IMG/VR virus record: IMGVR_UViG_2778261389_000001
Coordinates: 1-4,849 of that record
Reading direction: 5' to 3' (one strand)
Length of the DNA stretch: 4,849 bases
Source: a virus
Lineage: Duplodnaviria; Heunggongvirae; Uroviricota; Caudoviricetes
This document shows, piece after piece, positions 2,614 through 3,003 of the stretch. The first letter of the stretch is position 1. Each line of letters opens with the position of its first letter. A program made the translations under genes and the position numbers. The notes beneath the pieces are model-generated. The model saw nothing but the letters and a program-made list of their open reading frames with translations. It was not told where the DNA came from and searched no databases.

Positions 2614-3003
2614 TCACATGACAGGACAGTCATCAAACTCCCCTAGCCTCGCATCATTAATAATGTAGGTGATCACCCCGAATACCGGGAGCGAAGTGCC
2701 GTATCCTTCCTTTTCGGCTGGTATCGCTTCCCTTCTCCCGTTCTCCAGGTTTATCAGGTGCGGTTCCGGGTGAGTTCGATATCGCTTGATCCTGAATTCC
2801 CCGTCTATCGCACATATCAGCAGCGAGCCATCGCAGGCAGTGAGTGACGCATCCACAACAAGCAGCGCACCCTGCAGTATCCCTTCCCTGAAATGTGAAC
2901 GCGATGCGCGCATGAAATAAGTCGCAGCTGGCTGGCTAATTAGCTGCTGATCGAGGGAAATCTTTGTTTCAACGTAATCACTGGCAGGTGACGGGAAGCC
3001 CAT
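2614..3003 (-). CDS. UmuD'-like S24 peptidase-fold protein (129 aa) encoded without the cleavable N-terminal arm
   Basis: Starts MGFPSPASDYVE..., aligning with UmuD residues from Gly25 (GFPSPAADYVE) and with MucA; conserved ATYF, LLVVD, SLTA, IDGEF-IK blocks; the catalytic-loop motif reads ASRSHF instead of ASGDSM; GGGGGA ribosome-binding site 9 nt upstream; the ATG lies 2 nt after the upstream gene's TAG stop. The longer track ORF starting at 3102 is rejected. Confidence 0.85.
   Translation of the reverse strand: MGFPSPASDYVETKISLDQQLISQPAATYFMRASRSHFREGILQGALLVVDASLTACDGSLLICAIDGEFRIKRYRTHPEPHLINLENGRREAIPAEKEGYGTSLPVFGVITYIINDARLGEFDDCPVM

What the first reader, a model, noticed from the sequence alone, without database searches (positions are those of the whole stretch)
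2614..3003. Pre-processed UmuD'-like protein with a degenerate catalytic motif and no UmuC partner
The protein begins exactly where mature UmuD' begins after RecA-mediated autocleavage (GFPSPA...), so it has no cleavable arm. Where S24 peptidases have the nucleophile motif G-D/M-S-M it reads R-S-H-F; depending on where the one-residue gap is placed, the catalytic Ser is either replaced by His or kept in an altered context, while the partner Lys (EFRIKRY versus EFTVKKL) is conserved. No umuC/impB/mucB-like polymerase gene follows; a terminator and the flagellin promoter region follow instead. Phage P1 HumD is, as I recall, a precedent for a phage-encoded pre-processed UmuD' homolog. Such a protein might hijack host UmuC/Pol V, DinB or RecA during SOS.
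Basis: partly seen in the sequence, partly recalled or inferred. Interest (0 to 1): 0.6.

Follow-up and report, generated by a model that had tools for sequence, protein, structure and literature searches.

The report
Prophage HumD, a pre-cut UmuD' homologue

Summary
Window 2614..3003 (-) encodes a 129-aa protein that starts M-GFPSPA, exactly at the UmuD Cys24/Gly25 cleavage point. It has no umuC partner, either in the window or within 10 kb on longer contigs that carry the identical gene.

It is not a novelty. It scores 221.5 bits (cut-off 120), full length, on NCBIfam's curated 'HumD family' model. It is 69.8% identical to phage P1 HumD, and phages N15 and HK140 encode arm-less homologues 65-72% identical.

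The Ser-or-His question resolves in favour of Ser. Profile alignments put S36 on UmuD Ser60 and K73 on Lys97, with Gly58 deleted and Met61 replaced by His. This position varies among arm-less relatives (S, T, A and others). Only 3 of 29 arm-less representatives keep both Ser and Lys, against 52 of 58 with an arm. The dyad therefore looks vestigial.

A LexA box (3289..3308) lies between the humD operon and a divergent dinI-like gene.

Most likely function: an SOS-induced, cleavage-independent UmuD' substitute for host UmuC. This is inferred from P1 HumD.

The only under-described part is the upstream 79-aa gene, which is predicted to be a winged-helix protein and sits next to humD in 30 of 70 loci.

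The parts
2614..3003 (-). humD-family gene, 129 aa. An arm-less UmuD' homologue. S36 codon is 2896..2898, H37 codon 2893..2895, K73 codon 2785..2787. The C-terminal tail (residues 120-129, LGEFDDCPVM) extends beyond the end of UmuD.
   Evidence: NCBIfam HumD equivalog 221.5 bits, 1-129/129. Pfam Peptidase_S24 36.6 bits. 69.8% identical to P1 HumD. E=1.7e-26 to UmuD' 1UMU. hhalign probability 100%.
3006..3245 (-). orf79, a 79-aa gene of unknown function. It is the first gene of the operon, and its stop codon lies 2 nt before the humD ATG.
3289..3308 (.). LexA (SOS) box TACTGTATATCCATCCAGTA, shared by the two divergent transcription units.
   Evidence: Exact match to TACTG-N10-CAGTA. With one mismatch allowed, 0.10 matches are expected by chance. 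A CTG-N10-CAG box lies upstream of the operon in 67 of 70 umuC-less loci. P1 has an annotated LexA site in the same place relative to humD.
3281..3310 (-). Sigma-70-like promoter for orf79-humD (TTTACT-18-TATACT). It overlaps the LexA box.
   Evidence: Consensus scan. This is a pattern match only, and the scan found no more sites than shuffled sequence gives.
3324..3566 (+). Divergent dinI-like gene, 80 aa.
   Evidence: Pfam DinI 66.4 bits. PHROG 189 'RecA filament binding protein DinI'. Divergent dinI is present next to the operon in 12 of 70 loci and in phage HK140.
2582..2597 (.). GC-rich hairpin 17 nt after the humD stop codon. It shares its stem with the terminator found after humD in N15 and other loci. 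In the window the T-run survives only on the + strand.
   Evidence: In most close relatives, homology to the window ends at the stop codon, 2614.

Best explanation
The gene encodes a HumD-family protein: a phage-borne homologue of UmuD' made directly in the 'already cleaved' form.

Shown here:
- It belongs to the HumD family.
- It lacks the N-terminal arm and the cleavage site.
- The residues that canonical UmuD proteins keep invariant around the nucleophile (Gly58, Met61) are lost, and the Ser position drifts among arm-less relatives.
- It sits at the tail-fibre end of a prophage with Mu-type baseplate genes.
- It is the second gene of a two-gene operon (orf79-humD) behind a LexA box that also faces a divergent dinI-like gene.
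- No UmuC-like polymerase is encoded nearby.

Inferred, from what is reported for P1 HumD and from the 70% identity:
- DNA damage removes LexA and the operon is expressed.
- HumD dimerises and joins the host's own UmuC, together with RecA-ATP, to form a Pol V-like translesion polymerase.
- This happens without the slow RecA-mediated self-cleavage step that normally delays Pol V activation.
- The S24 fold serves as a scaffold, not as a peptidase.

The co-regulated DinI-like protein would act on RecA filaments at the same time. The role of orf79 is unknown.
For: - Family membership: NCBIfam HumD equivalog, 221.5 bits against a cut-off of 120, full length; 69.8% identity to P1 HumD and 65-72% to N15 gp26 and HK140 gp28; hundreds of clusters that their sources name 'HumD family translesion DNA polymerase'.
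- UmuD' homology: E=1.7e-26 to 1UMU; hhalign probability 100%, with G2 on Gly25, S36 on Ser60 and K73 on Lys97.
- No arm: 103 of the 120 closest relatives start MGFPSP, and the longer calls are miscalled starts.
- Dyad decay: both Ser60 and Lys97 are kept in 52 of 58 arm-bearing representatives but in only 3 of 29 arm-less ones.
- No umuC: none in 70 Enterobacterales-type loci, 40 of which have at least 5 kb on both sides. The same tblastn search found umuC directly downstream in 8 distant loci, which serves as a positive control.
- SOS control: LexA box at 3289..3308, and a box in 67 of 70 loci.
Against: - No experiment exists on this protein. The functional data concern P1 HumD, at 70% identity.
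- The primary paper could not be read here. Its details (restoration of mutagenesis when overexpressed, binding to UmuC and RecA filaments) rest on my memory of it.
- I did not show that the host of this prophage has umuC.
- The conserved orf79 partner and the strongly conserved C-terminal tail are absent from UmuD' and are unexplained by a simple 'UmuD' substitute' model.
- The AlphaFold model of HumD was unusable (pLDDT 45.9), so the Ser60 assignment rests on sequence profiles alone.
Confidence: 0.7

Rival explanations
1. HumD is an SOS modulator rather than a mutagenesis factor. By binding RecA filaments, host UmuD (as heterodimers) or UmuC, possibly together with orf79 and the DinI-like protein, it would tune RecA activity or the timing of prophage induction, or damp host Pol V, instead of building an active polymerase.
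For: The gene is co-regulated with a DinI-like RecA-filament binder from a shared LexA box. A dedicated small partner gene is conserved with humD in 30 of 70 loci and is sometimes better conserved than HumD itself (L068: 70% against 41%; L086: 59% against 36%). The family has a nearly invariant C-terminal tail that UmuD' lacks. From memory of McLenigan et al. 1999, P1 HumD complemented well only when overexpressed.
Against: The P1 HumD literature reports positive complementation of UmuD' function (title cited; note in the P1 record). Nothing found here points specifically to inhibition.
Confidence: 0.2
2. It is a decaying, functionless remnant of a umuDC operon that lost umuC and the 5' end of umuD.
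For: The catalytic motif is altered and there is no polymerase partner.
Against: The protein is full length and intact in more than 500 clusters at 90% identity, with many invariant columns. All start at the same Met-Gly. The LexA box is conserved in 67 of 70 loci. The family is present in functional phages P1, N15 and HK140.
Confidence: 0.03
3. It is still an active S24 self-cleaving peptidase or a LexA-like regulator, in the manner of UmuDAb or phage repressors.
For: Ser36 and Lys73 are both present in this particular protein, and Pfam Peptidase_S24 is above its cut-off.
Against: It has no N-terminal arm, no Ala/Cys-Gly cleavage site and no DNA-binding domain. Gly58 and Met61, invariant in arm-bearing homologues, are missing. 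The Ser position is T, A or other residues in close and distant arm-less relatives, and Lys is often R, C or V.
Confidence: 0.02

Closest known systems
Bacteriophage P1 HumD (NCBIfam NF051876, HumD family translesion DNA polymerase)
   Same: 129 aa, 69.8% identical end to end. Starts M-GFPSPA. Has the same one-residue-shorter x-x-S-H motif (P1 reads A-D-S-H), the same conserved Lys and the same C-terminal tail GEFDDCPV. A LexA box lies upstream. It is phage-borne and has no umuC partner.
   Different: In P1, humD stands alone next to the divergent lxr gene and upstream of phd-doc. Here it follows orf79 and faces a dinI-like gene at the tail-fibre end of an integrated prophage with Mu-type baseplate genes.
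Phage HK140 gp27-gp28 with divergent DinI (also N15 gp26, phiKO2 Gp23)
   Same: HK140 has the same three-gene layout: dinI (-), an 80-aa gene (+), then humD (+), at the prophage end, with attP overlapping the 3' end of humD. N15 gp26 is followed by a terminator that shares the window's hairpin stem.
   Different: The HK140 orf79 homologue is only 37-39% identical. HK140 and N15 have Thr (G-A-T-H) where the window has Ser.
E. coli UmuD / UmuD' (PDB 1UMU, 1AY9, 8GMT; NCBIfam PRK10276)
   Same: Same S24 fold family, 42% identity. G2 aligns with Gly25, S36 with Ser60 and K73 with Lys97.
   Different: There is no 24-residue arm, so no RecA-mediated self-cleavage is needed or possible. Gly58 is deleted and Met61 is His. 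Ten extra C-terminal residues are present. It is not in an operon with umuC. It scores 94.6 bits, below the 110 cut-off of the UmuD model.
impCAB-type plasmid operons (small DinI-like ImpC + ImpA + ImpB)
   Same: They pair a DinI-like protein with a UmuD-like protein under SOS control on a mobile element. PMC7092418 mentions accessory proteins encoded in the impCAB operon. That ImpC is DinI-like is from my own knowledge.
   Different: The ImpA-type protein keeps its arm and is followed by its own polymerase gene. Here there is no arm, no polymerase gene, and dinI is divergent.

Membership tests
HumD family (NCBIfam NF051876; prototype P1 HumD) | Full-length match to the curated family model, above its cut-off | tested here: met
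   221.5 bits against a cut-off of 120, residues 1-129 on profile 1-129, E=2.4e-66. 69.8% identity to P1 HumD over 129 aa.
HumD family (NCBIfam NF051876; prototype P1 HumD) | Protein begins at the position of UmuD' Gly25, with no cleavable N-terminal arm | tested here: met
   M1-G2 with G2 on UmuD Gly25. 103 of 120 relatives start MGFPSP, and the longer calls are heterogeneous miscalled starts.
HumD family (NCBIfam NF051876; prototype P1 HumD) | No cognate umuC-like gene in the operon or nearby | tested here: met
   None in the window. None within 10 kb on contigs carrying the identical gene. 0 of 70 related loci by tblastn with E. coli UmuC, with 8 positive controls found.
HumD family (NCBIfam NF051876; prototype P1 HumD) | Carried by a temperate phage or prophage | tested here: met
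   Tail-fibre assembly and tail-fibre genes lie in the window. Mu-type baseplate genes (Gp45, Gp46, Gp48 families) lie upstream on longer contigs.
HumD family (NCBIfam NF051876; prototype P1 HumD) | LexA-controlled expression | tested here: inconclusive
   A sequence-perfect TACTG-N10-CAGTA box at 3289..3308 overlaps the promoter-like site and is conserved in 67 of 70 loci. LexA binding and damage induction cannot be tested with these tools.
HumD family (NCBIfam NF051876; prototype P1 HumD) | Substitutes for UmuD' in UmuC-dependent mutagenesis; binds UmuC and RecA filaments | not testable with these tools
   Known only for P1 HumD (title of McLenigan et al. 1999 as cited; note in the P1 record).
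Self-cleaving S24 peptidases (LexA / UmuD / phage cI type) | S24 catalytic-domain fold | tested here: met
   Pfam PF00717, 36.6 bits against a cut-off of 23.3. Matches to the UmuD' and LexA catalytic domains in the PDB.
Self-cleaving S24 peptidases (LexA / UmuD / phage cI type) | Ser-Lys dyad in the conserved G-x-S-M context | tested here: not met
   S36 and K73 are present, but Gly58 is deleted and Met61 is His. Both are invariant in 43 arm-bearing homologues. The Ser position is S, T, A or other in arm-less relatives, and both Ser and Lys are kept in only 3 of 29.
Self-cleaving S24 peptidases (LexA / UmuD / phage cI type) | Ala/Cys-Gly cleavage site within an N-terminal segment | tested here: not met
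   The protein starts one residue before the Gly.
UmuD proper (NCBIfam PRK10276, Pol V autoproteolytic subunit) | Score above the family cut-off | tested here: not met
   94.6 bits against a cut-off of 110.

The most novel reading that the evidence does not exclude
The 79-aa protein encoded just upstream (3006..3245) may be a dedicated partner or regulator of HumD. It is predicted with good confidence to be a winged-helix domain. It lies within a few bases of humD in 30 of 70 loci across Enterobacterales, and in distant genera it is better conserved than HumD itself. Possible roles include controlling HumD's access to UmuC or RecA, or binding damaged DNA. If so, orf79-humD, sometimes with dinI, would be an uncharacterised phage module for rewiring the host SOS mutagenesis switch.
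Probability: 0.3. Interest if true: 0.45.

Novelty: already known. Interest (0 to 1): 0.15.

Why it matters
It matters little as a discovery. HumD was characterised in phage P1 in 1999, NCBI curates a family model for it, and this exact protein is already in public assemblies.

Three modest points are worth keeping:
- The catalytic Ser/Lys dyad decays once the cleavable arm is lost (52 of 58 arm-bearing representatives keep both residues, against 3 of 29 arm-less ones). This supports the view that in UmuD the dyad serves only self-activation.
- Prophages of many Enterobacterales carry the gene behind a conserved LexA box. This could let them switch on host Pol V-type mutagenesis without the RecA-cleavage delay, which is relevant to stress-induced mutation and the evolution of antibiotic resistance.
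- The small winged-helix gene that often precedes humD has no known function, and some databases mislabel it 'DNA polymerase V'.

Tried and rejected
- AlphaFold2 of the HumD protein with a 65-sequence family alignment gave an unusable model (mean pLDDT 45.9). All members are at least 69% identical, so the alignment is shallow.
- The primary HumD paper (PMC94175) and the P1 genome paper (PMC523184) are not held in the library.
- The afdb50 fold library was unavailable.
- For orf79, Foldseek against the PDB gave no significant match (best E=0.1). A profile search of PDB sequences gave only spurious hits to WD-repeat designs, confined to profile positions 66-78. BFVD returned only an uncharacterised phage homologue, K7P7N3 (43% identity over 75 aligned columns). 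No Pfam or NCBIfam family matched.
- An Rfam scan of the window found nothing near any gathering score.
- A longer 162-aa reading of the ORF (start at 3102) was considered and rejected. It runs in another frame across orf79, its extension has no UmuD-arm similarity, and equivalent extensions in database entries are mutually unrelated.
- The 'His replaces Ser' alignment (against LexA) was rejected in favour of the family-profile and profile-profile alignments, supported by the A-D-S-H of P1 HumD.

Full report
**What is in the window.** The window holds seven features, left to right:
- the end of an IS1 element (insA at 51..326, -);
- a flagellin gene (603..2228, -);
- the target ORF (2614..3003, -);
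- a 79-aa ORF (3006..3245, -);
- a divergent 80-aa ORF (3324..3566, +);
- a tail-fibre assembly gene (3962..4411, -);
- the 3' part of a tail-fibre gene.

The target ORF starts at an ATG 2 nt after the stop of the 79-aa ORF. Its product begins MGFPSPASDYVE.

**Checking the observation.**
- Start point: pairwise and profile alignments place G2 on UmuD Gly25, the first residue of UmuD' after Cys24/Gly25 cleavage.
- Longer reading: the alternative 162-aa reading runs in a different frame across the upstream gene. Comparable long calls in databases have mutually unrelated extensions. Of the 120 closest cluster representatives, 103 begin MGFPSP. The protein therefore really has no arm.
- Motif: it reads A33-S34-R35-S36-H37-F38. 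The Lys in EFRIKRY aligns with UmuD Lys97 in every alignment.
- Polymerase partner: no umuC-like gene is in the window. Contigs that carry the identical protein extend 10 kb each way and show Mu-type baseplate genes and tail-fibre genes on one side. On the other side they show flagellin, an fljA-like repressor, a second dinI, and yecD-aspS-nudB-yebC-ruvCAB. No Y-family polymerase appears.

**Ser or His.** Single-sequence phmmer put H37 on Ser60, and MAFFT put S36 there. Three further results settle it:
- A profile of 68 HumD-family sequences aligned to UmuD' 1UMU gives S36 on Ser60 and H37 on Met61, with the gap at Gly58.
- hhalign of that profile against 43 arm-bearing UmuD homologues gives the same result at 100% probability. 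In that arm-bearing set Gly58, Ser60, Met61 and Lys97 are invariant.
- P1 HumD reads A-D-S-H, which keeps the D-S of G-D-S-M.

The weak alignment to LexA disagrees. I give it less weight because LexA is a far more distant relative. I conclude that Ser is retained in an altered context, with Gly58 deleted, Asp59 replaced by Arg and Met61 replaced by His.

The position is not conserved as a nucleophile, however:
- Close relatives carry S, T or occasionally A there, followed by H, Y or C.
- Among 50%-identity cluster representatives from an exhaustive search (3227 hits at E up to 1e-3), 52 of 58 proteins with an arm of at least 10 residues keep both Ser60 and Lys97.
- Only 3 of 29 arm-less proteins keep both. 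In those, Lys is often R, C or V.

The dyad therefore looks vestigial once self-cleavage is no longer needed. An attempt to confirm this by structure failed, because the AlphaFold model built from the shallow family alignment had mean pLDDT 45.9.

**What it is.**
- The protein scores 221.5 bits (cut-off 120) over its full length on NCBIfam NF051876, 'HumD family translesion DNA polymerase', an equivalog-level model.
- It falls below the cut-off of the UmuD model (94.6 against 110).
- It is 69.8% identical over all 129 residues to phage P1 HumD, and 65-72% identical to N15 gp26, HK140 gp28 and phiKO2 Gp23.
- More than 500 clusters at 90% identity exist. Most named ones are from Citrobacter, Escherichia, Salmonella, Enterobacter and Kluyvera, and many are already named HumD.
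- The P1 record notes that HumD 'functionally complements E. coli UmuD'' and annotates a LexA site upstream.
[quoted passage not shown] PMC9603915 calls humD LexA-regulated.
- The primary paper (McLenigan et al. 1999) is not held.

**Regulation and neighbours.**
- An exact TACTG-N10-CAGTA LexA box lies at 3289..3308. It sits between the orf79-humD operon and the divergent dinI-like gene and overlaps a promoter-like TTTACT-18-TATACT on the minus strand.
- I collected 78 distinct loci with a complete HumD-type start.
  - Eight, all from outside Enterobacterales, have umuC directly downstream. They act as positive controls for the search.
  - The other 70 have no umuC in the available flanks, and 40 of them have at least 5 kb on both sides.
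  - Of these 70, 67 have a CTG-N10-CAG box within 200 nt upstream of the operon. The three exceptions are at or near contig ends.
  - Thirty have an orf79 homologue within a few bases of the humD start (gaps of -1 to 9 nt).
  - Twelve have a divergent dinI.
- orf79 behaves as a clean insertion/deletion. Several loci match 2614..3004 and 3248..3330 but lack the stretch in between.

**The terminator.**
- The hairpin at 2582..2597 has its T-run on the + strand, not in the humD direction.
- N15, L022 and L043 share the stem and keep a T-run after it in the humD direction.
- In most close relatives, homology to the window ends at the humD stop codon.
- In HK140 attP overlaps the humD 3' end.
- humD therefore sits at the prophage boundary, and the flagellin DNA beyond it is a different segment.

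**orf79.**
- It has no Pfam or NCBIfam family and belongs to PHROG 3893, function unknown.
- Several sources name it 'DNA polymerase V', which a 79-aa protein cannot be.
- AlphaFold gives a confident model (pLDDT 88.2) with H-S-H-H-S-S topology.
- The C-terminal half (FRDVSTQEGENRTFQLFNPNGG) is nearly invariant.
- In distant genera orf79 is better conserved than HumD (L068: 70% against 41%; L086: 59% against 36%).
- Its function is unknown, and it is the only part of the locus that is not already described.

**Mechanism.**
- Shown: family membership, absence of the arm, decay of the dyad, the LexA box, absence of a polymerase partner, and a prophage location.
- Inferred from P1 HumD:
  - SOS induction expresses HumD.
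  - HumD dimerises and joins host UmuC and RecA to give a Pol V-like activity.
  - This bypasses RecA-mediated cleavage.
- The co-regulated DinI-like protein acts on RecA filaments. DinI is known, from my own knowledge, to inhibit UmuD cleavage. A pre-cleaved HumD would be insensitive to that inhibition.
- A rival reading is that the module tunes SOS or RecA activity rather than promoting mutagenesis.
- Two features are not explained by the simple model: the orf79 partner, and the nearly invariant ten-residue C-terminal tail (GEFDDCPV) that UmuD lacks.

**Verdict.** The feature is an ordinary member of an already-known, curated family, so the interest is low.

Noticed in passing
window 1..512: The end of an IS1 element (insA at 51..326, -; IS1 terminus near 380) cuts an fljA-like 'repressor of phase-1 flagellin' ORF (360..512, -) after about 43 codons. 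The intact 179-aa version follows the flagellin gene in L006 (12352-12891).
   Followed up: partly
window 603..2304: A 541-aa flagellin gene with a sigma-28-type promoter (TAAAGTTT-N11-GACGATAA at 2278..2304, -; 0.03 expected by chance) lies directly outside the prophage end. On longer contigs it is paired with the fljA-like repressor and a second dinI next to yecD-aspS. This looks like an accessory flagellin or phase-variation islet at the phage attachment site.
   Followed up: partly
L006:14856-16628 (aspS beside the same prophage): This aspS is only 87.3% identical to aspS in all 5426 complete E. coli genomes, so the host is not E. coli. The best named HumD relatives are from Citrobacter, so the window probably comes from a Citrobacter genome. 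The window is 99.98% identical to contig NBCK01000046.1 (L007).
   Followed up: partly
window 3006..3245 and related loci: Several public records name the 79-aa orf79 protein 'DNA polymerase V'. This is an annotation error that has probably spread from its neighbour humD.
   Followed up: yes
L088, L090-L092 (Longitalea, Niastella); L079-L081: Some non-Enterobacterales encode UmuD' homologues that also start M-GFPSPA, with no in-frame arm. Unlike HumD, the Longitalea and Niastella proteins keep an intact S-G-D-S-M motif, and all of these loci have umuC directly downstream. The L079-L081 proteins keep only a reduced motif. Loss of the arm therefore does not always go with loss of the motif or of the partner.
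   Followed up: no
window 2614..2643 (HumD residues 120-129): The HumD family has a ten-residue C-terminal tail beyond the end of UmuD (consensus GEFDDCPV). It is among the most conserved parts of the protein (F123 and D125 invariant; E122, D124, P127 and V128 at least 90%). Its role is unknown.
   Followed up: no
window 2582..2607: The GC hairpin after humD is followed by a T-run only on the + strand. In the humD direction the T-run seen in N15, L022 and L043 has been replaced by AATAACATG at the junction with the flagellin segment.
   Followed up: yes
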